Origin: an uncultured Clostridia bacterium
GTDB taxonomy: Bacteria > Bacillota > Clostridia > Oscillospirales > Acutalibacteraceae
NCBI GenBank assembly: GCA_938034875.1
Contig: CALHND010000005.1
Location: 160,385 to 224,384 of the forward strand
Direction of reading: 5' to 3'
DNA length: 64,000 nt
Shown here piece after piece: positions 4,817 to 30,644 of the stretch. A program made the translations under genes and the position numbers. The notes under the pieces are model-generated. The model searched no databases and was not told where the DNA came from. It saw nothing but the letters and a program-made list of their open reading frames with translations. The first letter of the stretch is position 1, and the number at the start of each line of letters is the position of its first letter.

Positions 4817-5674
4817 ATGAACAAGGTCACGCTGGTAGTTATGGCGGCAGGAATGGGTAGCCGTTTTGGCGGCATGAAGCAAATCAATCCCGTAGGCCCT
4901 AACGGCGAGATACTGCTCGATTTTTCGGTTTATGATGCTGTGAAAGCAGGTTTTTCTAAGGTTGTTTTCATAATTCGAGAGGAAAACGAGGCTGATTTCC
5001 GACGTGTTATCGGAGACCGTCTTTCGAAAAAAGTCGATGTGGAATATGTTTATCAGGACACTTCAATTCTCCCCGAGGGTCGCAAAAAACCGTTTGGCAC
5101 GGGTCACGCGGTGCTTTGCTGCATGAACAAAGTTAACGAGCCGTTTGCCGTTATCAACGCTGACGATTACTACGGTGCAAGTGCATTTTGCCAGATGTAT
5201 GAGCATTTGAAAAATGCAAAAGGCACAGATTTTGCAATGGTCGCATTTGACCTTAAAAACACTCTTACCGAAAATGGTACCGTTTCTCGTGGTATATGCG
5301 AGTTGGACGGCAATTATTTAAAAAGCGTAACAGAGCGCACCAAAATAAAGGATATGCACTACACCGAGGATGGCGAAAACTGGGTTAGTTTGCCCGATGA
5401 TACAATGGCGTCCATGAATTTCTGGGGTTTCACTCCCGACTTTTTCCCTGCGCTAAAAGCTGATTTTGAAAATTTTCTTGCTACCGCCAACCTAGAAAAA
5501 GATGAATTTTATCTTCCTTTCGCTGCCGACAAAATGCTGCAAAGCGGCATGGCAACAGTAAAAGTACTAAAAAGCCACGACAAATGGTACGGAATGACAT
5601 ACCGCGAGGACATTGACGCTGTTAAAGAGGCTCTGACCGCCAAAATTACAGCAGGCGAATACGACGGAATATAA
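4817..5674 (+). CDS. sugar-phosphate nucleotidyltransferase family protein
   Basis: N-terminal MAAGMGSRFGG resembles the GxGxR nucleotidyltransferase signature; 285 aa. Confidence 0.6.
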   Translation: MNKVTLVVMAAGMGSRFGGMKQINPVGPNGEILLDFSVYDAVKAGFSKVVFIIREENEADFRRVIGDRLSKKVDVEYVYQDTSILPEGRKKPFGTGHAVLCCMNKVNEPFAVINADDYYGASAFCQMYEHLKNAKGTDFAMVAFDLKNTLTENGTVSRGICELDGNYLKSVTERTKIKDMHYTEDGENWVSLPDDTMASMNFWGFTPDFFPALKADFENFLATANLEKDEFYLPFAADKMLQSGMATVKVLKSHDKWYGMTYREDIDAVKEALTAKITAGEYDGI

Positions 5675-7539: not shown

Positions 7540-7616
7540 ATTAAGTTGCTTACACATTAAAAAATGATTTAAGATGCCACATACAATATTTAATTTTAAA
7601 ATTTGCATATTTAAAA

Positions 7617-7650
7617 AGACCCGACATCAGATGCTGTCAGGTCTTTTTTT
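7617..7650. terminator. bidirectional rho-independent terminator between uvrC(+) and the DHHW gene(-)
   Basis: AAAAAGACCcGACAtcagatgcTGTCaGGTCTTTTTTT: a stem flanked by an A-run and a T-run. Confidence 0.55.
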
Positions 7651-7672
7651 GTATAATGCTCAATTAGATTTT

Positions 7673-8773
7673 TTACTTCATAGTAACACTGTTGTTCAGA
7701 ACGAGGGTGCTGTAAAGGAATAAAACATCTGCGTTTTCAAAATCAACATAATTTCCGATAAGCTCGCTGGAAATATAACGGATGTCAATCAACGTAATCT
7801 CGGCGTAACCCTCTGTAAGCAACGGCGCAATGCTGCTGCCAAAAGAATCCCTAAAAATAATCAATTTTTTGTCGGTTTTTGCATTTGCGTTTTTAATATT
7901 TATTAGTGACTTTGATCCCGAAAGATACATCTCATAAGGGTCTCTTCCGTTTGCCTTTTCCATGTCATAAACAGGAATATTAGTTTCTGTCTCAAAGTCG
8001 TAAACTTGACAGCCGTCAATAGTGTTGCTGGTCATATAATACATCTGTTCAGATGGAAGCGGCAGCGCCGACTGTCCGTAATACACACCGTAAAATGGGT
8101 TATCAAGCAGATTTGTGGTGTACTTACCGCTGATTGTTGCGCCCATCTCTGAGGCAAGCTTTTGAGCTACATCAACTATTTTTTCCTGACGCCAATGAGT
8201 GTCGGTTTTATAATAATCCTCAAGCTCAAGGCAATCGAAAATGTCGATGTACTGCATATATTCTGTCCTGTCTTTTAGATAACTGACGAACTTTTCGTAA
8301 TCGATTGACGGATAGCCGTTTTGGTTTGCCATAAAGTAATTTTTGTCGGGTATAATCGAAAAATACACATTTGTACCGTCGATGTTTAAATATTTTTCGT
8401 AAATACGCTTAAATTTAGCCAGCGCATTATCAAGCGATTCGGTATTCATGGGATATTCGATTTTTGACAAATATCCGTCATTTATATAAATATTATTCAT
8501 GTCCTTTTGTCCGAAAAGGTAGAATGCAGACAGCGCTTTCAGTCGTCTGAACGAATCTCTTAGCGGGAATTGGTCGGTGGTATAACTTTCGAAATCCTGC
8601 ATGAAATCGCCGCTAAAAATTTCATCCACGCTAACTTCCGGCATTGTTGCAAGCGGGCGTCTTTCGCTTTCGGACATAGCATCTGCCGGCTTTAAATAAC
8701 ACCAAGTCGAAAATACAAAGAAAAATACCGCCGCCGACAACACAGTTATAATGTTTTTTATTTTTGTTGACAT
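7673..8773 (-). CDS. DHHW family protein (DltD/AlgX-like accessory protein of an MBOAT acyltransferase)
   Basis: N-terminal TM segment and a YYKTDTHW (DHHW-type) motif. It lies immediately downstream of an MBOAT gene. Confidence 0.75.
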   Translation of the reverse strand: MSTKIKNIITVLSAAVFFFVFSTWCYLKPADAMSESERRPLATMPEVSVDEIFSGDFMQDFESYTTDQFPLRDSFRRLKALSAFYLFGQKDMNNIYINDGYLSKIEYPMNTESLDNALAKFKRIYEKYLNIDGTNVYFSIIPDKNYFMANQNGYPSIDYEKFVSYLKDRTEYMQYIDIFDCLELEDYYKTDTHWRQEKIVDVAQKLASEMGATISGKYTTNLLDNPFYGVYYGQSALPLPSEQMYYMTSNTIDGCQVYDFETETNIPVYDMEKANGRDPYEMYLSGSKSLINIKNANAKTDKKLIIFRDSFGSSIAPLLTEGYAEITLIDIRYISSELIGNYVDFENADVLFLYSTLVLNNSVTMK

Positions 8774-11348: not shown

Positions 11349-11905
11349 ACAGTGATTCCCACCTCCTCTAAATACTGCTTTAATTTATTTCGTGTTCTAA
11401 ATAAAACGGACTTTACTTTGCTTTCGCTTACTTTAAATAAAGCAGCTATTTGCGAAATTGAATCGCAATAAAAGTAACGGCACACAAAAATCCGTCGCAC
11501 CTGTTCGGGTTGCGTTCGCAAAAAATCACTTATGCTACGGCCTATCATTGCGTTATCCGTCTGGCTTTCCACGGTGAATGAGCCTGAAACGCATCCGTCT
11601 AATTCGTCCAGCGATAAAGCAAATTCAGCTGCTGCGCGTTTATCGGCATGACAGGCTTTATACCGATTGATTGCTAAATTTCTCGTAATCTTTGCGAGAA
11701 ATGCCGAAAGTGAGGTGGGGTGCTGCGGAGGTATAGCCTTCCACGCTTGCATATAAGTATCGTTTACACATTCTTCGCTTTCGAGCTCACTGCCCAAAAT
11801 GTTTAATGATATTTTCATACAATATGATCCGTATTTTGCGGAAGTCTCCTCAATAGCCTGCTCGTTGCGCTGTAAATACAGCTCTACGATTTCGCTATCA
11901 TTCAT
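11345..11905 (-). CDS. RNA polymerase sigma-70 family (ECF-type) sigma factor
   Basis: Region 2 (VNDTYMQAWKAIP) and region 4 HTH (ISQIAALFKVSESKVKSVLFRTRNKL). Preferred start MNDSEIVELYL with RBS AGGAAAGGAG. The longer frame extends to 11950. Confidence 0.8.
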   Translation of the reverse strand: MNDSEIVELYLQRNEQAIEETSAKYGSYCMKISLNILGSELESEECVNDTYMQAWKAIPPQHPTSLSAFLAKITRNLAINRYKACHADKRAAAEFALSLDELDGCVSGSFTVESQTDNAMIGRSISDFLRTQPEQVRRIFVCRYFYCDSISQIAALFKVSESKVKSVLFRTRNKLKQYLEEVGITV

Positions 11906-12221: not shown

Positions 12222-12992
12222 TCATAGTTTTCTTTTATTAAAAACGGAAACAGCAACTATTACGTTTATTGCAACAAGCAAGAGAGTAATTATCAGCGAG
12301 ATAATAAACTCTTTTGGCTGTGCAATTCCGGTCAATATTTCCATGCCGTTGCTCAGTTTAAGCGGAAGAAAGTTTTGTGTTTTTTGAAACATACTGAGGA
12401 TATACAATGCTAAAACGCAGCCTCCTGTTCCAAGCAAAACTCCTGTATTTGAGTTTGCAATTGCTGAAAACAGTATTACAAGTGAAATTACCCATACCCC
12501 AAACACATAATAGAAAAACGTTGCCGTAAAGAGATGATTTGCAATGCCGTTGTCCCAGAAATACGCGTTATAGCCGTATGTCACGGTATATGTGAGCGCG
12601 TAACCGGCTGTCCACAGCAATAACATTATAACTGCTTTAGCACTTATCACCTTCCATCTTGAAAGACCTTTTGTCAGCACGGGTATCAGCGTACCTCTAT
12701 GATATTCATTTGTCATACAACCGCAAAGCATTAAAACAAATATTATCAGCACCATGGGAATGTTTTTGTAAAACTGTGTCCATGAAGTAAGTGCTGTAAC
12801 CTCAATTTCAGATATAACCATTCCGCTTTCGGCAAGTGTGTCGGACATTAGTTCCATCATCCACGGTGTAAGCTTGGCAATAGCAGGATTCATTATGCCA
12901 AACAGCACAAAAATGATAAGCAGGATGATAAGCCGCCCACTTCTGAGCTGCTCCAGCCATTCTTTTTTTAAAAAAGCCACAAATGCTTTCAT
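12222..12992 (-). CDS. ABC-2 type transporter permease
   Basis: Six predicted TM helices; translationally coupled to the upstream ATPase. Confidence 0.6.
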   Translation of the reverse strand: MKAFVAFLKKEWLEQLRSGRLIILLIIFVLFGIMNPAIAKLTPWMMELMSDTLAESGMVISEIEVTALTSWTQFYKNIPMVLIIFVLMLCGCMTNEYHRGTLIPVLTKGLSRWKVISAKAVIMLLLWTAGYALTYTVTYGYNAYFWDNGIANHLFTATFFYYVFGVWVISLVILFSAIANSNTGVLLGTGGCVLALYILSMFQKTQNFLPLKLSNGMEILTGIAQPKEFIISLIITLLLVAINVIVAVSVFNKRKL

Positions 12993-17277: not shown

Positions 17278-19350
17278 TTAACCTATTTGAATATTCCAAC
17301 CAGCGAGGTGGCGGTCTAACATAACGCCGTCCCAGTCGGTTATTTCGCCATCGCCGTCAATATCCAATGCATCAATCACACTAATATCAACATCCCAGCC
17401 TGCTAAATATCGTGCCAGCACAACGCCGTCCCAGTCGGTTATTACACCGTCGCTGTCAACGTCGCCCAATTCGCACATCGGCTGTCCGCACACATCACAA
17501 ATGTCGTCATCACCATAAATATGACCGGTTTCTCTTTCAAAACTGCACTCATTACAAGTGGCATCACAGTCATTATCAAAGGTATGACCTATTGTACCCG
17601 TTTTTTCCCAACCGCATTCGTTACAGGTGCTATCAAAGCAGTCAGTATACGAATGCTCATCAGCGCATGTATTATAATGCCAAGTAGCATTTATTAAATT
17701 ATCGTTGTAACCATAACAACAAATCTCTTCTCTATCCTCTTCAGAACCGACGTACCATACATCAGTGAGATTTGTACAGTCCGAAAATGCTGATTCGCCA
17801 ATAAAAGTTGCATTAACGGGAAGTTGAATTTTTGTGAGGCTGAAGCATCTAGAAAATGTATAATTTCCGATAATTGTAACCTTATTGGGTATTACGATGC
17901 TTGTGATACTCTGGCAGCCGAAAAACGCTCGACTACCCAAGCTGGTTAAACTGTCGGAAAGGGTTACATTTGTAAGTTCTGCGCAGGCTTCGAACGCTTC
18001 GTCACCGATACTTGTTACGCTATCGGGAATGGCAATTTCGGTAAGACCTGTACATTCAAGAAATGCTCTGTTACCGATACTTGTTACGCTATCGGGAATA
18101 GTAATGCTTGTTATTTCGTAGTTGACAAAAAAAGCGTATTCACCAATGCTCGTCACGGTGCTGTCGGTAGGAATAGTGCTGTTTTTGCAACCTGCAACTA
18201 AAATTTTATTTTCAGTGTCGATAATGCAGTTCCCTGAGCTGTGATATACCGTGTTGCCGCTGTCTACCGTCATGCTTTCGAGCCCGACACAGCCGCCAAA
18301 AGCATTTTCGCCAATATTTGTTACGCTATCGGGAATAGTAATTCCTTCAAGCTCTTCTGCATAGACAAAGGCATAGTCTGCTATCGTTAATGTGCTGTCT
18401 TTTACAATATATGTATCGCAAATAGAGTACTTTGCACTAATTAAATGACTACCAATATACAAAACATCGTTTTCCCAATTATCTTCGTTGAGATAATATT
18501 CGGTATCCAAAAACGCGTCAATTCCAATGTTTGTTACGCTATCGGGAATAGTAATCCCTTTAAGCTCTTCTACATAGTAAAAGGCAAAGTCTGCTATCGT
18601 CAATGTGCCGTCTTTTACAACATATGTATCGCAATCAGAGTACTTTGCACTAATTAAATGGCTTCCAATATATAAGATATCGTTTTCCCAATTATCTTCG
18701 TTGAGATAATATCCGGTGCCCGAAAAAGCCGACATTTCGATGCTAGTTACGCTGTCGGTAAGGGTAATGCTTTCAAGTGCAGAACACTCCGCAAAAGCAT
18801 AAGCTCCGATGCTTGTTACACTATCGGGAATAATGATACTTGTGAGGTTTATGCAAAATTCAAATGCACCACGTTCAATGCTTGTTACGCCATTAGGAAT
18901 TGTTACGCTGGTAAGATCTTCGCAACCAACAAACATAAGTTCTCCTATGCTTGTTACGCCATCAGGAATTGTTGCGCTGGTAAGGCTGTCGCACCAACCA
19001 AAAGCAATGTCACCTATGCTTGTTACGCTGTCGGGAATGGTAATGCTTGTGATGCTCTCACAATACAAAAATGCACCTTTACCTATGCTCGTCACACCAT
19101 CAGGAATTGTTACGCTAGTAAGGTTTGTGCATTGAAAAAATGCTCTAACACCTATACTTGTTACCTCATAACCGCCTAATGTTGAAGGGATTGTCACATT
19201 ACCACTGATGTCTGTGCTAACATTCATAATGGTTGCTTTTCCATCAATTATAATGTATTTGTAATACCCTTCCGTTTCCGCGTTTGCGGTTAGGCTCACC
19301 GTCCCCATAACCACCACCAACGTCAAAATAATTGCTAGGATTCTTTTCAA
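17278..19350 (-). CDS. BspA-type leucine-rich repeat protein with a C-terminal type-I dockerin
   Basis: Signal peptide. About 20 LRR units of ~23 aa ([22 protein letters not shown]). A Cys-rich segment. The C-terminus is [24 protein letters not shown] ... [24 protein letters not shown], a duplicated Ca-binding dockerin loop. Confidence 0.8.
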   Translation of the reverse strand: MKRILAIILTLVVVMGTVSLTANAETEGYYKYIIIDGKATIMNVSTDISGNVTIPSTLGGYEVTSIGVRAFFQCTNLTSVTIPDGVTSIGKGAFLYCESITSITIPDSVTSIGDIAFGWCDSLTSATIPDGVTSIGELMFVGCEDLTSVTIPNGVTSIERGAFEFCINLTSIIIPDSVTSIGAYAFAECSALESITLTDSVTSIEMSAFSGTGYYLNEDNWENDILYIGSHLISAKYSDCDTYVVKDGTLTIADFAFYYVEELKGITIPDSVTNIGIDAFLDTEYYLNEDNWENDVLYIGSHLISAKYSICDTYIVKDSTLTIADYAFVYAEELEGITIPDSVTNIGENAFGGCVGLESMTVDSGNTVYHSSGNCIIDTENKILVAGCKNSTIPTDSTVTSIGEYAFFVNYEITSITIPDSVTSIGNRAFLECTGLTEIAIPDSVTSIGDEAFEACAELTNVTLSDSLTSLGSRAFFGCQSITSIVIPNKVTIIGNYTFSRCFSLTKIQLPVNATFIGESAFSDCTNLTDVWYVGSEEDREEICCYGYNDNLINATWHYNTCADEHSYTDCFDSTCNECGWEKTGTIGHTFDNDCDATCNECSFERETGHIYGDDDICDVCGQPMCELGDVDSDGVITDWDGVVLARYLAGWDVDISVIDALDIDGDGEITDWDGVMLDRHLAGWNIQIG
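17700..19250. repeat. tandem ~69-bp coding repeats (LRR units)
   Basis: The recurrent string cctatgcttgttacgct.tcgggaat.gt.atgcttgt appears many times. Confidence 0.7.
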
Positions 19351-19367
19351 TTTATACTACCTCTCCC

Positions 19368-21557
19368 TTATGCTATTTTTATATCCCAACCGGCGAGATA
19401 GCGGTCTAACATAACGCCGTCCCAGTCGGTTATTTCACCGTCTCCGTCAATATCCAATGCTTTCAATTCCGAAATTTCTACATCCCATCCTGCTAAATAT
19501 CGTGCCAGCATAACGCCGTCCCAGTCGGTTATTACACCGTCGCCGTCAACGTCGCCCAATATGTACTTTGTACGTCCGCATAAATCACAAATATCATCGT
19601 CGCCAAAATCGTGTTCAATTTCTCTTATTTCTCCGCATTTTTCGCAGCTGGGATCGCATACATCTTTGTATTCATGCTCGGTTTGTCTTTCATAACTACA
19701 TTCGTTACAATTAGGGTCGCAATCATTGTCAAATGTATGGTCGCTTACATCGCTTCTTACCCAGTCGCAATTCTCGCAAGTAGCGTCGTCACAACCCGTA
19801 TACGAATGCTCTGTTACACAGGTGTTATAATGCCATGTAACGGTTTCCAGCTCGTTATTATCCGAAAAGATAGATATTTTTTGTCTATCACTTTGAGAAC
19901 CGGTATACCACAAATCAGTCAAACTGGTGCATTCAAGAAATGCACCTTCACCTATGCTTGTTACGCCCTTTCCAATTATTACGTTGGTAAGGCCTGTGCA
20001 TTCAAAAAATGCTCCTTCGCCTATGCTTGTTACGCTGTCAGGAATTGTGATGCCTGTAAGGCCCTCGCAATATTCAAACATACAGTTTCCTATGCTTTTT
20101 ACGCCATTAGAAATTGTTACACTGGTAAGAGATGTACAGCCAGAAAACACACAATCACCTATGCTTGTTACATTGGCGGGAATAGTGACGCTTTTAAGCT
20201 GAGTGCACATGGCAAATGCACCTTCCCCTATGCTTGTTACGCTATTAGGAATTGTGATGCTTGTAAGGCTCTCGCAAAATTCAAACATACCGTTTCCTAT
20301 GCTTTTTATGCCATTAGAAATTGTTGCACTGGTAAGAGCTATACAGCAAGAAAACACATAATCACCCATGCTTGTTACATTGGCTGGAATAGTGATGCTT
20401 TTAAGCTGAGTGCAGCTGGCAAATGCACCTTCCCCTATGCTTGTTACGCTGTCGGGAATTGTGATGCTTGTAAGGCTCTCGCAACCGACAAATGCACCAT
20501 AACCTATGTTTTTTACGCCATTAGAAATTGTTACACTGGTAAGAGCAGTACATAAGGCAAACGCAGAATCACCTATGCTTGTTACGCTATCGGGGATTGT
20601 TATGCTTGTAAGGCTCACGCAACCGCCAAATGCACCTTCGCCTATGCTTGTTACGCCATTAGGAATTGTTGCACTGGTAAGTGCTGTACATAAAGCAAAC
20701 GCATAATCACCTATACTTGTTACACTATTAGGAATTGTGACACTTTTAAGACTTTCGCAACCATAAAACGCAAATGTATTTATACTTGTCACTTTGTTCG
20801 GAATGGTGACGCTGGTAAGAGCATAACACTCAGCAAACGCACCTTCGCCTAAATATGTTACACTGTTAGGGATTGTGGCACTTTTAAGACTTTCGCATAA
20901 ATTAAACGCATAATCACCTATACTTGTCACGCTGTTCGGAATGGTGATGCTGGTGAAAGCACACTCACTAAACGCAGCATAGCCTATATATGTTACACTG
21001 TTAGGGATTGTAACACTTTTAAGACCTTTGCATAAATCAAATGCATAATCACCTATACTTTTTACACTGCTCGGAATGGTGACGCTGGTAAGAGCAGAAC
21101 ACTCAGCAAACACACCTTCGCTTAAATTTGTTACACTGTTAGGGATTGTGGCACTTTTAAGACTTTCGCATAAAGCAAACGCATAATCACCTATACTTTT
21201 TACACTGCTTGGAATGGTGACGCTGGCGAGATTACTACACCCAGCAAACGCATAATCACCTATATATGTCACACTGTTAGGAATAGTGATGCTGGTGATA
21301 TTATAACGATTACCAAACGCAGCTTCGCCTATGCTTGTTACCGTATTGCTGCCGAATTTTGAAGGAATTGATACATTGCCGCTTATGGCTTCGTTAACAT
21401 ACACAATAGTTGCTTTTGAGTTAGCCACTGTATATAAATAATCTCCACTGGAATAATATTCGCTGGTATCCGCACTCGCGCTTAGTCCGGCCATCCCAAA
21501 AGGCAAAATGGAAACAACCAATACAAACGCTAAAACAATTGATAAAAATTTCTTCAT
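19368..21557 (-). CDS. BspA-type leucine-rich repeat protein with a C-terminal type-I dockerin (paralog)
   Basis: Same architecture as the neighbouring gene; 729 aa. Dockerin segments [24 protein letters not shown] and [24 protein letters not shown]. Confidence 0.8.
19900..21420. repeat. tandem ~69-bp coding repeats (LRR units), paralogous array
   Basis: The same unit as in 17700-19250, repeated more than 20 times. Confidence 0.7.
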
Positions 21558-24035: not shown

Positions 24036-24380
24036 AAAGCGACTTATGTGTGACCGCCTGCTTTAGTGAGACGGTTTGCAGAATCATACTCGTATTCAGA
24101 GTAACCATTGGACAACATATTACCATCCGAATCGTGAGATACTGTCTTGCCGTTGAATACTGCCAGGCGGTTATTGGTATCATAGCCAAAACGGTCATTA
24201 GGTGCATCGGTAATATTACCTGCGGCATCGTAGGTGTAATTTTCTTCAGATACTACACAATCACAGCTAAGGCTGATAATCTGACGCTTTGTTACCTTGT
24301 TTAAATTATTATCATTTTAACATATTTTGGTATTTTTTTTGCAAGATAAAAAAGAACGGTTGGATCTTACACCAACCGTT
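24036..24380 (-). repeat. RHS junction repeat, copy A (YD-coding segment + leader + terminator hairpin)
   Basis: Near-identical to 29140-29405 (copy C) over ~250 nt except a ~30-nt divergent patch. The minus-strand reading ...YTYDAAGNITDAPNDRFGYD...SNGYSEYEYDSANRLTKAGGHT hits a stop at ~24047. Confidence 0.75.
24047..24290 (-). pseudogene. truncated RHS/YD-repeat fragment (relic cassette head)
   Basis: About 65 codons of YD-repeat sequence with no start codon upstream (in-frame TAA in the leader) and a premature end. Confidence 0.6.
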
Positions 24381-24453
24381 CTAGTTAGAAAGGAGTCTTT
24401 TAAAACGAAAACTTGAATAATTTTTGTTAACACAAAAGAACCGTACCTCTGTG

Positions 24454-25095
24454 TTAAGTGTCAAAGGCTATATGAAGTTTTTTTATATAATATAGTTTAA
24501 TTGCATCAAAAACTCCTAATATAACAAACACCGATGACAGAAGTATCAATAGTGCACTACAAAGCAGCAATGCAACATTTTGATCCATAGCAACATTTAA
24601 TTTTTTTAAAATTATATATGTAGCAATTGATATTGATCCTGATATATAAGCTAATGAACCATTTTTACTTTTAGTTGACGTTGCTTTTTCCTTTTTTATG
24701 TATTTCAAAGTAAATAGTATTGTCAGTGTCGCCACTAAAATGAGTGGTAAAGATAACAAAATTAAGCTTAATTGCACTTTGTTATACATAGAATACAATA
24801 TCATTGCAAATAGTAAATAATTAATAGCAGTAAACACATTTAAACATATACTAGATTTAATTGTACGAATAACAGTATACTTTTTTGTTAGAATAACAAT
24901 TAAAATAAATGAAAAAAATATTGAAAACGCTATTACAGCAGAGAACACTTTGTAAACATGGCCTAATATTATACCACATACAATACTAATAATTGGAAAA
25001 AAATTGACCAAAAATAAATTTAAACGCATTTTTCTAGGCTCTTTATCCAAGGTGTTTTCAATAAAAACTCTAATGCTATCTTCCAACTCAATCAC
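24454..25095 (-). CDS. polytopic membrane protein, putative immunity protein
   Basis: 213 aa, ~6 TM helices, very AT-rich. Lies directly downstream of a Gly-zipper peptide ORF and ends at the conserved terminator hairpin. Confidence 0.4.
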   Translation of the reverse strand: MIELEDSIRVFIENTLDKEPRKMRLNLFLVNFFPIISIVCGIILGHVYKVFSAVIAFSIFFSFILIVILTKKYTVIRTIKSSICLNVFTAINYLLFAMILYSMYNKVQLSLILLSLPLILVATLTILFTLKYIKKEKATSTKSKNGSLAYISGSISIATYIILKKLNVAMDQNVALLLCSALLILLSSVFVILGVFDAIKLYYIKKLHIAFDT

Positions 25096-25097
25096 TC

Positions 25098-25298
25098 CTA
25101 ATCAAACCATCCGCGTATTCCGTCAACAACCCAATCTAATCCTTCTTTACCCCAGTCAACTACTGTTTTTCCATTGATCTTTAAGACATCGGAAAGCGCA
25201 TAACTTACTAAGCCTACTCCTACACCAACGGCAATACCAATCGCTGTTCCCACACCAGGAGTTGCTACTGTTCCGATGGCTCCAAAGATTTTTGTCAA
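25098..25298 (-). CDS. glycine-zipper peptide (putative displaced pore-forming toxin tip or bacteriocin-like)
   Basis: GAIGTVATPGVGTAIGIAVGVGVGLVSYAL contains repeated GxxxG/AxxxG motifs. It resembles the C-terminal tip of the RHS module at 27805-28100. The start is non-ATG (TTG). Confidence 0.35.
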   Translation of the reverse strand: MTKIFGAIGTVATPGVGTAIGIAVGVGVGLVSYALSDVLKINGKTVVDWGKEGLDWVVDGIRGWFD

Positions 25299-25344
25299 GA
25301 CCCAGAACTGCCCGCTGTTTTAGAACCGTTCCTGTGTATTCCGA

Positions 25345-25707
25345 TTACTGCCGAACCTGTTCAGCTGGGTTAATTCTAATATACCAATTATCATCAATTA
25401 ATGTGACATCAAAATCTTGACCAATATAATTCAATAAATAAGCAAGTGATTCTCCCTCTTCTTCTACGTAAAACATTACTACTTCATGATTATTGCATAG
25501 AAAAACAAAAAATAATGAACTTTGTGTTTTCCCTATTTCATATGGTCGACATTGATTTAGAAAAAGACAAATAGTTTCATATTCTTTTTCAGTAAGGTAC
25601 TCATCTCTTTTAGGAATTTCTGGACTAAAAATTGATTTTCTATTTATAGAATAAAGGTAATCGAATATTTCGTTATCTTTTAGTATACTAGTAATTTCTG
25701 TGAACAA
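25345..25707 (-). CDS. small cytoplasmic protein, putative immunity/orphan cassette ORF
   Basis: 120-aa AT-rich ORF inside the degenerate cassette B; no recognisable motif. Confidence 0.3.
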   Translation of the reverse strand: MFTEITSILKDNEIFDYLYSINRKSIFSPEIPKRDEYLTEKEYETICLFLNQCRPYEIGKTQSSLFFVFLCNNHEVVMFYVEEEGESLAYLLNYIGQDFDVTLIDDNWYIRINPAEQVRQ

Positions 25708-25848
25708 TTCTCTTTTGTTAAAAAAACTTCTTCTACAGAATCAGGGGTACTGTAAACTTGGGGATCATACTCATCTTCATGAAAACATGAACATAATACA
25801 AAACTTATAAATATCAATATTACAATAACAAATATAATTATTTTGCTT

Positions 25849-26052
25849 CTATGGGAGTGTTCTGTTGATACCAGGTTTGGCGTTTGGATAGTCATCATAA
25901 TAGAAATCTATTCCTTTCTTTATTGCGATATGGTCTTTCTCTGAATCTCCATAATATATTGAAGCATCTCGCACTTCTTCCGAAAAAATGTTTTTTAATC
26001 CTTTCGAAGGAACTCCTCCACCCCAGTACAATGTAACATCGCCAATACCCAT
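25849..26052 (-). pseudogene. degenerate toxin-tip fragment of cassette B
   Basis: Reading out of the junction frame gives ...GNITYGYLGSAMGIGDVTLYWGGGVPSKGLK... A frame-shifting indel relative to copies A and C places a stop 11 codons after the junction. Confidence 0.35.
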
Positions 26053-26072
26053 TGCGCTACCTAAATATCCAT

Positions 26073-26250
26073 AGGTAATATTGCCGGCCGCTTCGAGGTG
26101 TAATTTTCTTCAGATACTACACAATCACAGCTAAGGCTGATAATCTGACGCTTTGTTACCTTGTTTAAATTATTATCATTTTAACATATTTTGGTATTTT
26201 CTGCAAGATAAAAAAGAACGGTTGGTTTTTAATCCAACCGTTCTTTTTTC
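26073..26250 (-). repeat. RHS junction repeat, copy B (shortened)
   Basis: Shares ggtgtaattttcttcagatactacacaatcacagctaaggctgataatctgacgctttgttaccttgtttaaattattatcattttaacatattttggtattttctgcaagataaaaaagaacggttgg with copy A, including the terminator hairpin. Confidence 0.75.
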
Positions 26251-26344
26251 AAATTGTTACAAAGGAGACTCATTCCCTGTCTCCCATTCGTTTTGATATC
26301 CACATCATTCGTAAACGCAATTTATTTGTTTCTCAAAGCATAAT

Positions 26345-27676
26345 TTATTTATTCGTTGTTTTAGGAACAATTTCAATATAATCAACAAAAAACAAATATT
26401 TATTATTATTCACCTTAAGCTCTCTAACACGATATGCATCAGCATCTGCAATTTCACTTTGCGTTAAAACAAATCCTAAATAATATTCGCTTACTGGGCT
26501 TTTTAAACAATAATACTCCCCTAAATCAAGGTCTTCCTCTATCGAAAGAATGTCAACAGTTTGACTATTGTCACTGAATACAATTTCAACCAGATGAATA
26601 CAATTATTTTCAACTATCAATCCAAGTGAATCCACAAAAATCTCATCTTTGTACAAATTAAAATAATCTAATATTATAGCATCTTCATAATGCAGAGTTA
26701 CTGCACGACTTAATTTTTTTTCAAAATCACTGATGTCACTATCATTTTTTACATTCAAAAAGCAACCTACCACTGAAAAAACAACAACTATAACAATGCC
26801 AATTCTTTTTACCAATTTACTTTTTTTTATTCTTTTTTCAGTTTTATTATCATATATTTGAAAATTTGTATCTGGAAGAACTTCTACATCAAATAAGGAA
26901 ACCGGCTGTTCCTGTTCTATTGCCATAAGATATTTTTTAGAAAGGGTTGCATAGTCCATCCGAGGCGCAATGGAGATAATATTTTCAAAAAAGCTTTTTG
27001 CCTCCTTAAAATCTCCATTTTCATAACAAGCTATTGCATAAAAAAAATCATTTTGCAGTTTTCGCAGTTTTATATACCACACATTAGGTTTAAGTCCCAA
27101 ATTTCTTTCCTTGCATACAATTTTACACGCTTCGTAATTTTTATCCAAAAAATACCTATAATAGCTCCATACAGAATTAGATGAACTCAGGAAAGATTTT
27201 GATGGATAGTTTTCTTTATATTCATCATATTTTTTTAATAGAATTTGCAGTTTTTCAAAATCTCTTAATTCAAAATATATTAGAGCTAAAATACCTAAAT
27301 ATGAATACTTGCCCATTATTGAACTCTTTTTTTTTCGCATTTGAGTAGTTGCAATATTAACAGTTGTTTGATAATCACCCGTGCACATGGCAGCATTAAT
27401 ACGATAATCTAATGGCGGTATAAAAAATTTTCCTTTTATTAGTTCCTGAAATCCTATTGCATCGAGCTTTACAAACAAAACAGACGCTATTGTTTTATTA
27501 GCAACTATTCTTATAAGAAGTTTTACAGGAAAATAGAGTGCTGTACAAAACAATATAGACCAAACATTAGGATAAACAAATATACACGGAATAACTATGG
27601 CTATATAACATATTAAAATAAGAATACATTTGAAATAATATTGGCGCAATATGGCTTTTTGTGATGATGATTTCAT
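26345..27676 (-). CDS. membrane protein, putative immunity protein for the adjacent RHS toxin tip
   Basis: 443 aa. Two N-terminal TM helices and a mid-protein TM. AT-rich. Lies immediately downstream of the toxin module and is followed by the conserved hairpin. Confidence 0.45.
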   Translation of the reverse strand: MKSSSQKAILRQYYFKCILILICYIAIVIPCIFVYPNVWSILFCTALYFPVKLLIRIVANKTIASVLFVKLDAIGFQELIKGKFFIPPLDYRINAAMCTGDYQTTVNIATTQMRKKKSSIMGKYSYLGILALIYFELRDFEKLQILLKKYDEYKENYPSKSFLSSSNSVWSYYRYFLDKNYEACKIVCKERNLGLKPNVWYIKLRKLQNDFFYAIACYENGDFKEAKSFFENIISIAPRMDYATLSKKYLMAIEQEQPVSLFDVEVLPDTNFQIYDNKTEKRIKKSKLVKRIGIVIVVVFSVVGCFLNVKNDSDISDFEKKLSRAVTLHYEDAIILDYFNLYKDEIFVDSLGLIVENNCIHLVEIVFSDNSQTVDILSIEEDLDLGEYYCLKSPVSEYYLGFVLTQSEIADADAYRVRELKVNNNKYLFFVDYIEIVPKTTNK

Positions 27677-27804
27677 TATGAATCTCCTATCAAAACGAAT
27701 AAATATTTATGTACACATCCCATCAACAAGAGAGTGATGGGATGTGTTTTACAATTTAATTTTCACGATTGAAATCTATACCGTAAACAACTGGACAAAT
27801 TTAT

Positions 27805-29187
27805 CTATCCAGCGGTTGCGGTTGCACCAGTACTTGTTATCCAATTCCAAAAACTTGATGCCCAAGCGGAAATTTGATTACCCACGGTTGTGAGAGATTG
27901 CCCCGCATTCGCCCATGCTGTTGCTGCAGCTCCAATAGCAATAGGGTCATTCCAAGCTCCCATTCCGCAAGTTGCAATAGTTTCAGCCACTGCTACTCCT
28001 GCAACTGCTGAAAGTCCTACAGCAATTCCTAAATTTAAGAATATACTGCCCCAATCGGTAGACTCTTCTTTTCCAGGAACAGTGCCTGTCTCAGATTTAG
28101 AACCCTTGTTTTGATTATTTTTATTATTCCAAGAAGTCATCTCAACACTCGTTGACACTGAATTACCAAAGTTATCCGATGTATTAATGGTATAACCAAC
28201 AGACAAAGACGAGCCAGGAACCCCAGAAATATATACTGCCACTGTAGAATATCCATCAATATCAGCAGAGTATTCTATTTTAATTCCATCATCACTAACC
28301 GACATACTTCCATTCGACATATCAAATGAAATGCTACCCAGAATATCTATTTGATCAGAAACCACTGCAGATATTTCAGCATTTCCTAGTCCACTGCTCG
28401 CCTGTACAGAAAAACTTCCCTTACCATTCATTCCTATCAGGAACGAGAAACTCATCCCATTAGAAACACTGAAAATATTTTTAAAACTCATAAGTTGATC
28501 TAATGTACTTGCTAACAAATTGGTTGCAATTTTCAAATCATTTGGAGATTCAATATTACCCAAAATTTTATATAAAGAGTCAAAATCAACCGATCCTCTC
28601 TCCTCAGCCGCCAACCCAAACGGGTCAACATAGGAAACGGGGTTGCCGTTGACGTAGGAATAACGGTTAAGCGATGTGGAATTGGATATTTCACCGTGAA
28701 GAATATCGGCATTGATGAAACGGCGCATTACAGGACTGTAGTAACGAGCTCGCATATAATACAAGCCGTTTTTATCGGTAATTACACCGTCACGACCGTT
28801 GTAACCGAAGATTACGAAGCTATTACCTGTTCTGGAAATAAGCTTACCATAGGTATCATACTTAAAGGTATCGGTAATGTTGCCGTTGATATCGGTTATA
28901 GCTACTGTACTGCCTCTATAATCGAAATGGTAGGTCTTAAAACAACCTTCCTTTTCTTCGCCAATAAGACCGTGACCGTAAACATACTTGGTTGTAATAT
29001 CATTTGTAGTCTTTTGTAACAACTGACTTAACTTACAGTTGGTATTATAGGTATAAGTAGTATCAGCATCAGAGCAAAGATTGCGGATTCGTACATCCTC
29101 TGCATTATAAGTATATGTGTGGCCATCTGCTTTGATTAATCGATTTGCAGAATCATACTCGTATTCAGAGTAACCATTGGACAACAT
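27805..29187 (-). CDS. orphan RHS/YD-repeat C-terminal module with a variable toxin tip
   Basis: YD repeats (YTYNAEDVRI, YGHGLIGEE, YHFDYRGS) run into the RHS core end PVSYVDPFGL at ~28626. A ~270-aa variable C-terminal domain follows, rich in Ser/Gly, with a Gly-zipper-like end (GIAVGLSAVAGVAVAETIATCGMGAW...IAIGAAATAWANAG). The coding frame extends upstream to ~29400 with no start codon: the leader contains an in-frame TAA. Confidence 0.65.
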   Translation of the reverse strand: MLSNGYSEYEYDSANRLIKADGHTYTYNAEDVRIRNLCSDADTTYTYNTNCKLSQLLQKTTNDITTKYVYGHGLIGEEKEGCFKTYHFDYRGSTVAITDINGNITDTFKYDTYGKLISRTGNSFVIFGYNGRDGVITDKNGLYYMRARYYSPVMRRFINADILHGEISNSTSLNRYSYVNGNPVSYVDPFGLAAEERGSVDFDSLYKILGNIESPNDLKIATNLLASTLDQLMSFKNIFSVSNGMSFSFLIGMNGKGSFSVQASSGLGNAEISAVVSDQIDILGSISFDMSNGSMSVSDDGIKIEYSADIDGYSTVAVYISGVPGSSLSVGYTINTSDNFGNSVSTSVEMTSWNNKNNQNKGSKSETGTVPGKEESTDWGSIFLNLGIAVGLSAVAGVAVAETIATCGMGAWNDPIAIGAAATAWANAGQSLTTVGNQISAWASSFWNWITSTGATATAG

Positions 29188-29405
29188 ATTGCCATCTGAA
29201 TCGTAAGATACGGTCTTGCCGTTAAACCGTATGAGTTTGTTATAGAAATCATAGCCAAAACGGTCATTAGGTGCATCGGTAATATTACCTGCGGCATCGT
29301 AGGTGTAATTTTCTTCAGATACTACACAATCACAGCTAAGGCTGATAATCTGACGCTTTGTTACCTTGTTTAAATTATTATCATTTTAACATATTTTGGT
29401 ATTTT
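29140..29405 (-). repeat. RHS junction repeat, copy C (head of the intact cassette)
   Basis: See copy A. Here the repeat is embedded in continuous YD coding sequence. Confidence 0.75.
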
Positions 29406-29585
29406 CTGTAAAGTGTTTTTCCTCGACAATTCTCGACAATAGGTCGTAAGCATACTCAAAGCCCGTAATCACGACACCACCCGATGTTTTTTCCACCGTA
29501 GAGGTAATTCGCTGTTTATTATCATAAACTGTAGTTGTAACACTACCGTCAGGCTTGGTTGCCCCTACTACCCTGTTATTTTCAT
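29405..29585 (-). pseudogene. internal RHS YD-repeat fragment
   Basis: The minus strand reads KDENNRVVGATKPDGSVTTTVYDNKQRITSTVEKTSGGVVITGFEYAYDLLSRIVEEKHFTENTKIC*. A stop codon sits immediately upstream. Confidence 0.55.
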
Positions 29586-30644
29586 CTTTTCAGAAAAGCT
29601 GAACTGCTTAATTTCTCAACTTCATCGACTTGCACAACTTTTCTCAAAAAGCAGTAAAACATTTGCAACAGTTATCTTAGATAAAGCAAATAATGAAAAG
29701 TGAAAAGCAGTAGGCATAAAAACCTACTTCTTTTTATTTGGCAGAGACGGAGAGTCTGATACAAAATGCACAAGGTATTCATGCTTGCGTTTGATAAGTA
29801 AACACCCTCGGAATTTTCTATTTGTTCCGCGTGCAAGGGTGAACATTTCTTATTGACGATGATAAATGGTTTCTGTGATTCGGGTGTTCCTGTGAAACAA
29901 ATGCTCGAACATTATTTTGCCGTTACGCCTGTCACCGTATGAGCCCGTGAAAACGGACTTTCTCTCTACATAATATATGGTTAAAGAATTATTTTTTAAT
30001 TTATATGAAAACTATTGACATTCATACCAATGTGTGCCATTGTAAATTTATGTATTTAAAAGGCGAAAGTTCTTATGGTTCCCTATTTTCCGCGCACTAT
30101 CGCAGATAGAAGGAAAAAAAGCCCTTCCGAATTCTTATTAGATGTTTTTTATGTTACAAAAGGGCTTATGTTATTACAGGTTAAAGAAATAACCGGCATT
30201 GGAACCCCATTAATACAAAACCGGGCAACCAGAGGCTGGATACGAAAACCTATTGAAAAAGGTATTCCGTCGACCATCTGGCAAAGATTATGCTTTTCGA
30301 TATGTTGCGGGGAGTTTTACAAATTAAAAATATAGCCTGTATTATACCTATATCAACGGACAGACAAATGACAGGGACGATGACATAATTCTCGAATTGC
30401 AGCTGTATGTTTACATATACGAAATACTTCACAGCGTGGATATAAAACGATTCTGTCTGGTGGAAAATTAGAGGCTATTATTAAACAAGCCGTTAAAAGC
30501 TATAAACAACCATACAATGGTGCTTTTAAGAAATTGGTGTCTGGCTTACCCATTATTTTAATTTATTATGCTTCTGCTATTAAAAAAGCAAAAGCTGATA
30601 GAATGTTAAACTAGAGAAATATTTATGAAGGGAGGTAGAGCTAT

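What the first reader, a model, noticed from the sequence alone, without database searches (positions are those of the whole stretch)
24036..29405. Three copies of a composite junction repeat: terminator hairpin, ~75-nt non-coding leader, and in-frame YD coding with no start codon
Copies A (24036-24380), B (26073-26250) and C (29140-29405) share the block ...gaacggttgg/ccaaccgttc hairpin (A and B), then aaaataccaaaatatgttaaaatgataataatttaaacaaggtaacaaagcgtcagattatcagccttagctgtgattgtgtagtatctgaagaaaattacacc, then YTYDAAGNITD... coding. The YD reading frame passes back through the leader with no ATG/GTG/TTG and hits an in-frame TAA. Every cassette head is therefore translationally silent unless it is recombined onto an expressed RHS gene. 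A and C differ only by a ~30-nt patch (ccgttgaatactgccaggcggttattgg versus ccgttaaaccgtatgagtttgttatagaa). B has a frame-shifting variant right after the junction. The repeat unit includes the 3' terminator of the preceding immunity-like gene. The duplication unit therefore ran from the end of one cassette to the head of the next.
Basis: seen in the sequence. Interest (0 to 1): 0.6.

Follow-up and report, generated by a model that had tools for sequence, protein, structure and literature searches.

The report
Silent RHS toxin cassette heads
The three repeats are the front ends of leftover ("orphan") RHS toxin/immunity cassettes in a gut Clostridia chromosome; the supposed non-coding leader is decayed RHS coding sequence with a stop codon replacing a conserved tyrosine, and it probably also carries a promoter, so this is a known kind of locus with one modestly new detail.

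Summary
The repeat is real and lies on the minus strand. A ~105-111-nt block is identical at 24232-24342 (A), 26096-26206 (B) and 29301-29411 (C). A and B follow a strong terminator hairpin; C does not.

The "non-coding leader" is not a leader. In C it runs in frame into an upstream YD fragment. In full-length RHS genes of related gut Clostridia the same stretch is translated (...EEKHLAENTK(I/M)CYTYDSLNRV...). A 15-nt patch, seen only here, turns YTYDS into *NDNN; the TAA replaces a conserved Tyr.

The locus (24045-29590) is a decaying orphan RHS array with no full-length rhs gene in the window. It holds:
- one intact toxin plus immunity pair (C);
- half an Ntox44 domain (B);
- a toxin tail with an intact immunity gene;
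- a bare stub (A).

The junction "terminator T-run | CTTGCA..." was not made locally: at least 10 orphan heads in 9 other loci share it.

The head contains TTGCAR, 17 nt, then TRTGnTATACT. These hexamers are invariant at synonymous sites while the spacer varies (P about 5e-5). This suggests an embedded promoter that drives the immunity genes.

Verdict: a known kind of system (orphan Rhs cassettes). The terminator-plus-promoter junction is a plausible, untested refinement.

The parts
29412..29590 (-). 5'-truncated YD-repeat fragment (KDENNRVVGATKPDGS...EEKHFT). It has no start codon and is in frame with head C.
   Evidence: Translation. PF05593 RHS_repeat, E=3.7e-7. blastn to the L005 main gene starts at query position 1327.
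29301..29411 (-). It is decayed RHS core codons (T)ENTKIC*NDNNLNKVTKRQIISLSCDCVVSEENYT. It contains -35-like TTTACA (29412-29407) and extended -10-like TGTTAAAAT (29391-29383). The TAA is at 29388-29386.
28612..29300 (-). C-terminal part of the RHS core of cassette C (YTYDAAGNIT ... YVDPFGL). It includes the palindrome GGTAATATTACC at 29289-29278 and the DPFGL codons at 28626-28612.
   Evidence: 65-79% identity to 11 aligned homologues among the 120 listed, which include P0026 (Eubacterium sp. CAG:841) and P0075 (Ruminococcaceae). Coordinates.
27805..28611 (-). Toxin (CT) domain of cassette C, intact, with no Pfam family. It ends in a Gly/Ala-rich hydrophobic tail.
   Evidence: 70% identical to the CT of orphan P0007 in L003, and 67% identical to the CT of the full-length 1894-aa RHS gene in L005. 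No Pfam hit.
26345..27676 (-). 443-aa membrane/TPR-like protein, the putative immunity protein of cassette C. It has its own AGGAG ribosome-binding site.
   Evidence: 38% identical to the gene immediately after the matching CT in L003 and L005. Weak TPR hits. The AGGAG sequence, 8 nt before the ATG, is read.
26208..26287 (-). Inter-cassette spacer: a first hairpin (GGGAGAC...GTCTCC) followed by the intrinsic terminator GAACGGTTGG-ATTAAAAA-CCAACCGTTC plus T6 (26249-26215).
   Evidence: Fold -33 kcal/mol, z=-5.5. Inverted and direct repeat families I1 and D5.
26096..26206 (-). Head block B: TTGCAG (26206-26201), 17 nt, then TGTTAAAAT (26186-26178). The TAA is at 26183-26181.
25849..26095 (-). 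Diverged YDAAGNIT remnant with a 1-nt deletion, joined at GGCAATATTACC (26085-26074) to the C-terminal half of an Ntox44 toxin domain.
   Evidence: PF15607 Ntox44, E=1e-9, profile positions 47-102 of 104. Alignment. P0028 is an RHS protein with a complete Ntox44 domain.
25345..25898 (-). Two overlapping ORFs (72 and 120 aa) in different frames. They are probably one immunity gene frameshifted at a T7 run (25726-25720).
   Evidence: ORF list and sequence. This is inference only; no family hit.
25098..25316 (-). Last ~70 codons of a glycine-zipper-type CT toxin with no head. Half a copy of the inter-cassette element lies upstream (about 25335-25300).
   Evidence: tblastn: P0036 residues 416-486 of 487, 53.5% identity. 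Sequence.
24454..25095 (-). 210/213-aa polytopic membrane protein, the putative immunity protein. Its start overlaps the toxin stop, and it has AGGAG 8 nt before a TTG start.
   Evidence: 41% identical to the L007 gene at 6602-7216, which also precedes a copy of the hairpin element. Sequence.
24346..24457 (-). ~110-nt inter-cassette element: hairpin 1 (TTAACACAGAGG...CTTTTGTGTTAA), a conserved linker, then the terminator AGAACGGTTGG-TGTAAGAT-CCAACCGTTCT plus T6 (24382-24353).
   Evidence: Fold -31.8 kcal/mol, z=-4.9. Terminator scan. Homologous copies in L003, L005, L007 and L008.
24232..24342 (-). Head block A: CTTGCA at 24345-24340, 2 extra A's, and TGTTAAAAT at 24322-24314. The TAA is at 24319-24317.
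24045..24231 (-). YD stub of cassette A (YTYDAAGNIT...AGGHT*). Homology stops at 24045, with no toxin and no immunity gene. The convergent thioredoxin-like gene ends at 23969.

Best explanation
Region 24045-29590 (minus strand) is a decaying array of orphan RHS C-terminal toxin/immunity cassettes in the chromosome of a spore-forming gut Clostridia bacterium. Its closest relatives are Acutalibacteraceae/Oscillospiraceae MAGs and Eubacterium sp. CAG:841.

What the repeat is (shown):
- The repeated block is the 5' end of the RHS-core homology segment that every orphan of this family carries. It corresponds to codons ...H-L-A-E-N-T-K-I-C-Y-T-Y-D-S-L-N-R-V... of a full-length gene.
- In this genome a private 15-nt patch (TAT ACT TAT GAT AGT to TAA AAT GAT AAT AAT) replaced the conserved Tyr with TAA.
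- All three heads carry the patch and are identical over ~105 nt. This points to intralocus gene conversion or reuse of a single head.
- The toxin parts have no start codon and no delivery domain, so they are translationally silent.

How it would work (inferred):
- A toxin can only be deployed after homologous recombination between the ~800-nt core homology and a full-length rhs gene, as shown experimentally in Salmonella.
- Only cassette C still has a complete toxin.
- The head embeds a sigma-A-type promoter (TTGCAR, 17 nt, TRTGnTATACT; here TAAAAT). It sits immediately after the previous cassette's intrinsic terminator.
- Each cassette would therefore be an insulated transcription unit. Its immunity gene, which has its own ribosome-binding site, would be expressed while the toxin fragment is not.
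- In practice the locus would work mainly as an immunity island.
For: - Repeat and stop codons.
- Coding origin of the 'leader': 11 homologues read straight through with consensus EEKHLANSTKxCYTYDNLSRVT. DNA alignment to main genes and orphans in L003-L005 has no gaps in this stretch.
- Canonical arrays of a main gene plus orphans in relatives: L004 (1847 aa), L005 (1894 aa), L013 (1673 aa), L016 (1881 aa), L018.
- The toxin and immunity pair of cassette C equals the CT and immunity of the L005 main gene.
- Ntox44 half-domain in B.
- No other RHS sequence in the window.
- Family-wide junction: homology starts at query position 1498-1501 in 10 or more heads. The same T-run|CTTGC junction occurs in 7 species-representative MAGs and in L019. 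About half of 120 homologue ORFs begin at or next to LA(E/N)NTK or MCYTYD.
- Promoter match: copy C scores 10/12 plus TG, the second-best site in the region.
- Synonymous-site test: of 103 invariant-residue degenerate codon columns in 11 protein-ascertained heads, only 10 use a single codon. Five of those are CTT, TGT, TAT, ACT and TAT, which form the two hexamers; GCA and GAT are each 10 of 11. Spacer codons vary freely. Hypergeometric P=5.5e-5, about 0.005 after correcting for sliding windows.
- L018 keeps TGTGnTATACT although the residues change from M-C to L-W. In L019 and L013 the in-frame stops fall in the spacer, not in the hexamers.
- Precedents: orphans lack initiation signals while immunity genes are expressed (PMC3150448). 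Main/orphan recombination activates the orphan toxin (PMC3967940). Internal promoters exist inside Salmonella rhs ORFs (PMC7043789).
Against: - No transcription data exist, and the promoter scan as a whole is not enriched over shuffles (26 found against 29 expected).
- The hexamers encode conserved residues (L-A, C-Y-T-Y), so part of their conservation is protein-level.
- The 11 sequences in the synonymous-site test are not phylogenetically independent.
- Copy A has a 19-nt spacer because of 2 extra A's.
- Some orphan heads in relatives start downstream of the putative promoter: L003 7969, L005 11730, L014 and L017.
- No full-length rhs partner is visible in the window, so the reservoir function may already be lost.
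- The locus is colinear at 99.98% identity in two other assemblies, with no recombination isoform.
- Several unrelated hairpins abut the head at the same nucleotide. Simple common descent does not fully explain this.
Confidence: 0.8

Rival explanations
1. A truly non-coding ~75-nt leader plus terminator was duplicated in situ together with the cassette ends, and it serves only as a recombination handle.
For: - Three identical copies occur within 5.4 kb.
- There is no start codon and an in-frame TAA.
- The hairpin is shared by A and B.
Against: - The stretch aligns without gaps to translated RHS core sequence in full-length genes.
- C has in-frame YD codons upstream instead of a hairpin.
- The identical terminator|head junction exists in other species with other cassettes, so it predates this locus.
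Confidence: 0.1
2. The hairpin, or the palindrome GGTAATATTACC, is a site for a site-specific recombinase. That would make this an integron-like or serine-recombinase-driven cassette system rather than one driven by homologous recombination.
For: - The hairpin, including its loop TGTAAAAG, is conserved across species.
- The junction is precise to about 3 nt behind different hairpins.
- Three independent junctions fall exactly after the palindrome: window B, L003 7969 and L005 11730.
- A large serine recombinase gene lies next to one of them in L003.
Against: - No recombinase or integrase gene lies in or beside the window array or most related arrays.
- The hairpins are textbook intrinsic terminators with a T-run on the RHS strand only.
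- At least four unrelated hairpin families occupy the same position.
- No attC-type R''/L''/L'/R' organisation is evident in the hairpin (read by eye, no attC model run), and nothing reached any Rfam family's gathering score.
Confidence: 0.1
3. The two hexamers conserved at synonymous sites are not a promoter. They would be another nucleotide-level signal, such as a recombination hotspot that fixes the cassette boundary, an RNA motif, or a protein-binding site.
For: - The synonymous-site conservation is real, but its function is untested.
- The orphan boundary lies exactly at the 5' hexamer.
Against: - Two hexamers 17 nt apart, matching TTGACA and TRTGnTATAAT with a freely varying spacer, is the specific signature of a sigma-A promoter.
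- Internal rhs promoters are documented in Salmonella (PMC7043789).
Confidence: 0.2
4. The TAA is read through or recoded, or the repeats are an assembly artefact, so that cassette C is an ordinary expressed gene.
For: The frame is open on both sides of the TAA in copy C.
Against: - The upstream fragment itself has no start codon and begins just after a TGA.
- TAA terminates neighbouring genes, such as the thioredoxin-like gene and the 443-aa gene.
- Relatives have TAT (Tyr) at this position.
- The same structure appears in two other metagenome assemblies with 5 mismatches in 21 kb.
Confidence: 0.02

Closest known systems
Orphan rhs-CT/rhsI modules downstream of full-length rhs genes (Enterobacteria; Poole et al. 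2011, PMC3150448; Koskiniemi et al. 2014, PMC3967940; the 'C-terminal displacement' model as cited in those papers)
   Same: - Fragments retain the 3' part of the YD core up to DPxGL, followed by a variable toxin and a small immunity gene.
- The toxin has no translation start and no export signal.
- The immunity genes have their own ribosome-binding sites.
- Cassettes are stacked in tandem.
- Homology to the main-gene core allows recombinational activation.
   Different: - The host is a Gram-positive gut Clostridia lineage. In relatives the main genes carry Big_2 and DUF6531 N-termini rather than T6SS PAAR/VgrG-linked ones.
- The window holds no main gene at all.
- The heads additionally carry a nonsense patch.
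- Across species the family shares one precise boundary directly behind a terminator.
Internal P2 promoters inside Salmonella rhs ORFs (Starsta et al. 2020, PMC7043789)
   Same: A promoter embedded in conserved rhs coding sequence upstream of many different CT/immunity pairs. It gives expression independent of the main gene's promoter.
   Different: - The promoter here is predicted only, not measured.
- It lies about 255 codons upstream of DPxGL, at the orphan boundary.
- There is no downstream start codon for the toxin, so only immunity expression is expected, not TA-like toxin expression.
Orphan immunity-gene arrays and acquired interbacterial defence islands (for example Vibrio cholerae T6SS immunity arrays, PMC5361080)
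   Same: Intact immunity genes are retained next to truncated or absent effector genes. This is consistent with protection against the toxins of neighbouring cells.
   Different: - Here the immunity genes stay attached to RHS core heads and terminators.
- One immunity candidate is itself frameshifted.
Integron gene cassettes with attC hairpins
   Same: Promoterless or silent cassettes are stacked in tandem, each ending in an imperfect-palindrome hairpin.
   Different: - There is no integrase and no attC core sites.
- The hairpin is an intrinsic terminator.
- Exchange is expected to occur by homologous recombination through about 0.8 kb of shared coding sequence.

Membership tests
Orphan Rhs-CT/immunity cassette (Rhs polymorphic toxin system) | Contains the C-terminal part of the YD/RHS core, ending in the DPxGL motif, followed by a variable toxin domain. 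| tested here: met
   - Cassette C has YTYDAAGNIT...YVDPFGL (28626-28612) followed by a 270-aa CT.
- Its CT is 67-70% identical to CTs in L003 and in the L005 main gene.
- B carries half of an Ntox44 domain.
- A is only a core stub.
Orphan Rhs-CT/immunity cassette (Rhs polymorphic toxin system) | Lacks the N-terminal and delivery region and lacks translation initiation signals. | tested here: met
   - No ATG, GTG or TTG lies between the in-frame TAA and the YD repeats.
- The upstream fragment starts just after a TGA with no start codon.
- No Big_2 or DUF6531 region was seen in the locus proteins scanned with Pfam, and tblastn with the homologues, which are mostly C-terminal fragments, found RHS sequence only at 24047-29598.
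Orphan Rhs-CT/immunity cassette (Rhs polymorphic toxin system) | A cognate immunity gene with its own translation signals lies immediately downstream. | tested here: inconclusive
   - The 443-aa and 210-aa ORFs follow the toxins, have AGGAG sites, and are syntenic with homologues behind the same CTs in L003, L005 and L007.
- Immunity activity cannot be tested here.
Orphan Rhs-CT/immunity cassette (Rhs polymorphic toxin system) | Located downstream of a full-length rhs gene that shares the core homology. | tested here: not met
   - There is no other RHS sequence in the 64-kb window.
- The array is flanked by housekeeping-type genes.
- The feature is met in the related loci L004, L005, L013, L016 and L018.
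- The rest of this genome could not be searched.
Orphan Rhs-CT/immunity cassette (Rhs polymorphic toxin system) | Can recombine with the main gene to express the orphan toxin. | not testable with these tools
   - Two other assemblies are colinear, with no isoform.
- The experimental precedent is in Salmonella only (PMC3967940).
Intrinsic (rho-independent) terminator | A GC-rich stem-loop followed directly by a T-run on the transcribed strand. | tested here: met
   - There are 11-pair stems with an 8-nt loop followed by T6.
- The scan lists 24382-24353.
- The two spacer segments holding the terminators fold at -31.8 and -33 kcal/mol, with z of -4.9 and -5.5.
- Termination itself was not measured.
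Sigma-A (sigma-70-type) promoter with extended -10 | A -35 hexamer like TTGACA, a 16-18-nt spacer, and TRTGnTATAAT. | tested here: inconclusive
   - Sequence match: TTGCAR, 17 nt, T(A/G)TGnTATACT in relatives. In the window, copy C has TTTACA, 18 nt, TGtTAAAAT, scoring 10/12 plus TG.
- The hexamers are invariant at synonymous sites while the spacer varies.
- No transcription-start data exist, and the scan overall is not enriched.
Integron cassette / attC | An adjacent tyrosine-recombinase integrase, and an attC site with inverse-core and core sites. | tested here: not met
   - No recombinase gene lies in the window locus or in most related arrays.
- The hairpin arms do not fit RYYYAAC/GTTRRRY.
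- Several unrelated hairpins occupy the same place.
Ntox44 (PF15607) toxin domain | A full-length match to the 104-position profile. | tested here: not met
   Only profile positions 47-102 are present, at 26085-25852. The domain is truncated and out of frame with the head.

The most novel reading that the evidence does not exclude
In this Clostridia RHS family the cassette boundary may be a functional module rather than an accident of displacement. An intrinsic terminator would abut, to the nucleotide, a promoter written into the RHS reading frame (TTGCAR, 17 nt, TRTGnTATACT, maintained at synonymous sites). Every displaced cassette would then become an insulated unit that transcribes its immunity gene while keeping the toxin untranslatable. 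This terminator-promoter junction, together with the GGTAATATTACC palindrome, would define recurrent recombination boundaries across species.
Probability: 0.4. Interest if true: 0.55.

Novelty: new member of a known kind. Interest (0 to 1): 0.33.

Why it matters
Orphan toxin/immunity arrays are thought to serve as reservoirs of weapons and as shields in bacterial competition. Almost all the mechanistic work has been done in Proteobacteria. This locus shows the same architecture in abundant, uncultured gut Clostridia, and it corrects a tempting misreading: the "non-coding leader" is decayed coding sequence.

If the embedded promoter is real, it would explain two things. It would explain how orphan immunity genes stay expressed after displacement. 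It would also explain why so many orphans in this family begin at the same nucleotide. Metatranscriptomes could test this directly.

Tried and rejected
- Exact searches for the TAA-bearing leader found nothing in genome contigs or metagenome contigs. The hairpin|head junction was absent from metagenome contigs and the hairpin from viral contigs. These collections evidently do not hold this strain, so the patch could only be called private relative to the loci fetched.
- Rfam gave only three tRNAs elsewhere in the window at gathering threshold. At E up to 10 over the locus it gave only sub-threshold chance hits. No known RNA family explains the leader or the inter-cassette element.
- I considered a riboswitch or attenuator reading of the two-hairpin element, because the loop of hairpin 1 (ACGGTTCT) resembles the 5' arm of the terminator. 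I left it as a note, since six copies are too few for covariation statistics.
- I considered a small antisense ORF (AAAGGAG-N9-ATG KTLMIFV...). The peptide is not conserved beyond 8 residues and the ATG is lost in half the copies.
- I considered a DGR-type template/variable repeat pair for the A/C patches. There is no reverse transcriptase nearby, and both alleles of the patch occur in other genomes.
- I looked for recombination isoforms in other assemblies and found none.

Full report
**1. Observation.** The feature lies on the minus strand. A 46-nt core of the reported block occurs exactly three times, at 24271-24316, 26135-26180 and 29340-29385. Dinucleotide-preserving shuffles give 0 matches. 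The repeat finder and MAFFT give a 111-nt family at 24232-24342 (A), 26096-26206 (B) and 29301-29411 (C), and a 292-nt A/C family at 91% identity.

A and B are each preceded by GAACGGTTGG-N8-CCAACCGTTC plus a T-run (24382-24353 and 26249-26215). The ~110- and 88-nt spacer segments that contain these hairpins fold at -31.8 and -33 kcal/mol (z -4.9 and -5.5), and the first scores as an intrinsic terminator.

The YD frame read backwards meets TAA at 29388-29386, 26183-26181 and 24319-24317, with no ATG, GTG or TTG in between. Some details differ from the finding:
- C has no hairpin.
- A and C are identical for 158 nt and then differ at 26 positions, in two patches plus scattered sites.
- A has 2 extra A's at its 5' edge.

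**2. The "leader" is decayed RHS coding sequence.** Translating 29598-27805 shows that in copy C the block is in frame with 60 further YD codons upstream. A single TAA interrupts the frame...GFEYAYDLLSRIVEEKHFTENTKIC*NDNNLNKVTKRQIISLSCDCVVSEENYTYDAAGNITD....

A protein search returned 1594 relatives at E <= 1e-10, among them proteins named for Eubacterium sp. CAG:841 and Ruminococcaceae. Eleven of them aligned to the query read straight through this stretch, with consensus EEKHLANSTKxCYTYDNLSRVTxRTVKNxCDxVVSSExYTYDAAGNITD.

At the DNA level, full-length genes and orphans in L003-L005 align without gaps in this stretch. They carry TGT TAT ACT TAT GAT AGT/AAC where the window has TGT TAA AAT GAT AAT AAT. 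The TAA therefore replaces the conserved Tyr of a YD repeat. None of about 20 other heads examined has this patch. All three window heads share it and are identical over ~105 nt, whereas they are only ~86% identical to the closest foreign head. This argues for intralocus gene conversion or reuse of one head; that is an inference.

**3. What the locus is.** Only 24047-29598 holds RHS-related sequence in the 64-kb window (tblastn with 120 homologues). Reading the minus strand from its upstream end:
- A start-less YD fragment, then head C.
- The core to DPFGL (28626-28612) and an intact ~270-aa toxin domain. The toxin is 67-70% identical to the CT of an orphan in L003 and to the CT of the full-length 1894-aa RHS of L005.
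- A 443-aa TPR-like membrane protein that is syntenic with the gene after those CTs.
- A two-hairpin spacer, then head B.
- A diverged YDAAGNIT with a 1-nt deletion, fused at GGCAATATTACC to Ntox44 profile positions 47-102 of 104.
- Two overlapping ORFs that look like one frameshifted immunity gene.
- The last ~70 codons of a glycine-zipper CT (P0036-like).
- An intact 210-aa membrane protein with its own AGGAG site.
- The ~110-nt two-hairpin element, then head A and a 62-codon stub ending at 24045.

The flanking genes are chromosomal (SpoVAC, Band_7, thioredoxin/DsbD, dockerin/LRR proteins). Two other human-gut assemblies carry the same locus with 5 mismatches in 21 kb and no rearrangement.

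Related loci show the canonical arrangement: a full-length RHS (Big_2, DUF6531, RHS; 1673-1894 aa), then immunity, then one to several orphans. These are L004, L005, L013, L016 (Eubacterium sp. CAG:841) and L018. The window thus holds a stranded, partly degraded orphan array.

**4. The junction is family-wide, not a local duplication.** I used the L005 main gene as a blastn query. Homology starts at query position 1498-1501 (CTTGCAGA) in window A, two L003 orphans, and orphans in L005, L006, L007, L008, L011, L012 and L013.

A degenerate head pattern found seven species-representative MAGs from goat, human and Hadza guts: Acutalibacteraceae, Oscillospiraceae and "Clostridia bacterium". In six of them, the head follows a hairpin plus T-run: the GAACGGTTGG-TGTAAAAG-CCAACCGTTC hairpin in five and a variant hairpin in L012. 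The seventh (L010) is a continuous RHS gene. L019 adds two more cases.

Other heads sit behind unrelated hairpins at the same nucleotide, for example CAACCGCTCT-GAAA-AGAGCGGTTG in L003 and L005. Gene-caller N-termini such as RAVGVKANRPFY|LAENTK and GNSRKNSAVSFH|LAENTK are simply translations of such hairpins. About half of the 120 homologue ORFs start at or next to LA(E/N)NTK or at MCYTYD.

**5. A promoter written into the head (inferred).** The consensus scan lists copy C as TTTACA, 18 nt, TAAAAT with an upstream TG. It scores 10/12, the second-best site in the region, although the region overall is not enriched for such matches. In relatives the head reads C-TTGCA-R, 17 nt, T(A/G)TG-n-TATACT. 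This matches the Gram-positive extended -10 consensus TRTGnTATAAT; that consensus is from my own knowledge.

I tested for nucleotide-level constraint using 11 heads that were ascertained by protein, not by DNA pattern.
- 103 codon columns have an invariant, degenerate amino acid. Only 10 of them use a single codon.
- Five of those 10 are CTT (Leu, sixfold degenerate), TGT, TAT, ACT (Thr, fourfold degenerate) and TAT. These are exactly the two hexamers.
- GCA and GAT are each 10 of 11.
- Other Leu and Thr columns use 2-6 codons, and the spacer residues vary (ADNTKT, AICRKM, AENRKM, AILQKM, ANSTKM, ANNTRL).
- The hypergeometric P is 5.5e-5, or about 0.005 after allowing for sliding windows.

Three further observations fit. 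In the GC-richer relative L018 the residues change from M-C to L-W, but the nucleotides keep TGTGnTATACT. In L019 and a third L013 orphan, in-frame stops fall inside the spacer while the hexamers survive. The window's patch changes TATACT to TAAAAT, which is still a 5/6 match to the -10 consensus.

Taken together with the terminator directly upstream, each cassette looks like an insulated transcription unit that would express its immunity gene while the toxin fragment stays untranslated. Precedents exist in Proteobacteria: orphan immunity genes are expressed while orphan toxins lack initiation signals (PMC3150448), and internal promoters inside rhs ORFs are active in Salmonella (PMC7043789).

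Caveats:
- There are no RNA data.
- The hexamers also encode conserved residues.
- The 11 sequences are related to one another.
- Copy A has a 19-nt spacer.
- Some orphans in relatives start downstream of the element.

**6. How the toxins could be used.** In Salmonella, a 522-bp segment shared at 95% identity between the main and orphan genes allows recombination that fuses the orphan CT to the delivery-competent main gene (PMC3967940). Cassette C offers about 690 nt of core between the TAA and DPFGL for the same event. A crossover downstream of 29386 would leave the TAA behind. Whether this genome still has a main rhs gene is unknown. B and A cannot yield functional toxins.

**7. Rivals.**
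- A truly non-coding leader duplicated in situ is contradicted by sections 2 and 4.
- An integron-like or recombinase-driven system is not supported. There is no recombinase in or beside most arrays. The hairpins are ordinary terminators, and several hairpin families occupy the same spot.
- One point stays open: the precision of the boundary, and three independent junctions exactly after the palindrome GGTAATATTACC (window B, L003 7969, L005 11730; in L003 next to a large serine recombinase gene), are not fully explained.
- Stop-codon recoding and assembly artefact are excluded by the missing upstream start codon, the normal use of TAA as a stop nearby, Tyr in relatives, and the independent assemblies.

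**8. Verdict.** The repeat is real. Its biological class, silent orphan Rhs toxin/immunity cassettes, is well known. The terminator-plus-embedded-promoter junction conserved across gut Clostridia is a plausible, testable refinement of moderate interest.

Noticed in passing
window 29289-29278, 24220-24209, 26085-26074; L003 ~7969; L005 ~11730: GGTAATATTACC (codons G-N-I-T) is a perfect 12-bp palindrome and a recurrent breakpoint. Window copy B joins the Ntox44 half-domain right after it. Two orphan heads in other genomes begin right after it, behind unrelated AT-rich DNA. In L003 a large serine recombinase gene (6242-7837) lies just upstream of that junction.
   Followed up: partly
window 24457-24346 (half copy ~25335-25300); L003 ~5860-5990; L005 ~11540-11690; L007 ~5020-5150 and ~7210-7345; L008 ~330-465: A conserved ~110-nt inter-cassette element. 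It has a first hairpin with covarying stems (AACACA/TGTGTT versus AAGACA/TGTCTT), a conserved linker ACAAAAATCATTAAAGTTTTC...AAGACTCCTTTCT, and then the terminator hairpin with a conserved loop TGTAAAAG. It follows different immunity genes in different species. Nothing reached any Rfam family's gathering score.
   Followed up: partly
window + strand 24383-24430; reverse strands of L003 5973, L005 11650, L007 7317: Antisense to the inter-cassette element there is AAAGGAG-N7-9-ATG AAA ACT TTA ATG..., a good ribosome-binding site and start in 3 of 6 copies (ACG in the window). It encodes 17-30-aa hydrophobic peptides that are conserved only in their first ~8 residues. It may be a relic gene start or a small ORF.
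   Followed up: partly
L019 ~1290-1320; L013 ~12620-12645: Other orphan heads are silenced independently by in-frame stops (LANN*GMCYTYD; LE**NKMCYTYD). These stops lie in the spacer between the two conserved hexamers.
   Followed up: partly
window 25726-25720 (minus strand), ORFs 25680-25898 and 25345-25707: The putative immunity gene after the Ntox44 remnant appears to be split by a frameshift at a run of seven T's.
   Followed up: no
window 29728-29709: A bidirectional terminator-like hairpin (AGTAGGTTTTTATGCCTACT) lies ~120 nt upstream of the truncated first YD fragment, between the array and the divergent + strand genes. It may be the remnant of an earlier cassette boundary.
   Followed up: no
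window 17278-21557 (minus strand): Two adjacent large ORFs (690 and 729 aa); the 690-aa ORF has LRR_5/dockerin hits, the 729-aa one has none on record. The region carries internal tandem repeats of ~73-86% identity, seen as off-diagonal blastn hits.
   Followed up: no
L014 8165-11722, L015 5209-9191, L016 12482-19484: In several related genomes the RHS orphan arrays sit next to phage-like genes (holin, CHAP endolysin, S24/M78 repressor pairs) or conjugative genes (MobL, TraG/VirD4-like, Toprim). This suggests the arrays travel with mobile elements. The window array has no such neighbours.
   Followed up: no
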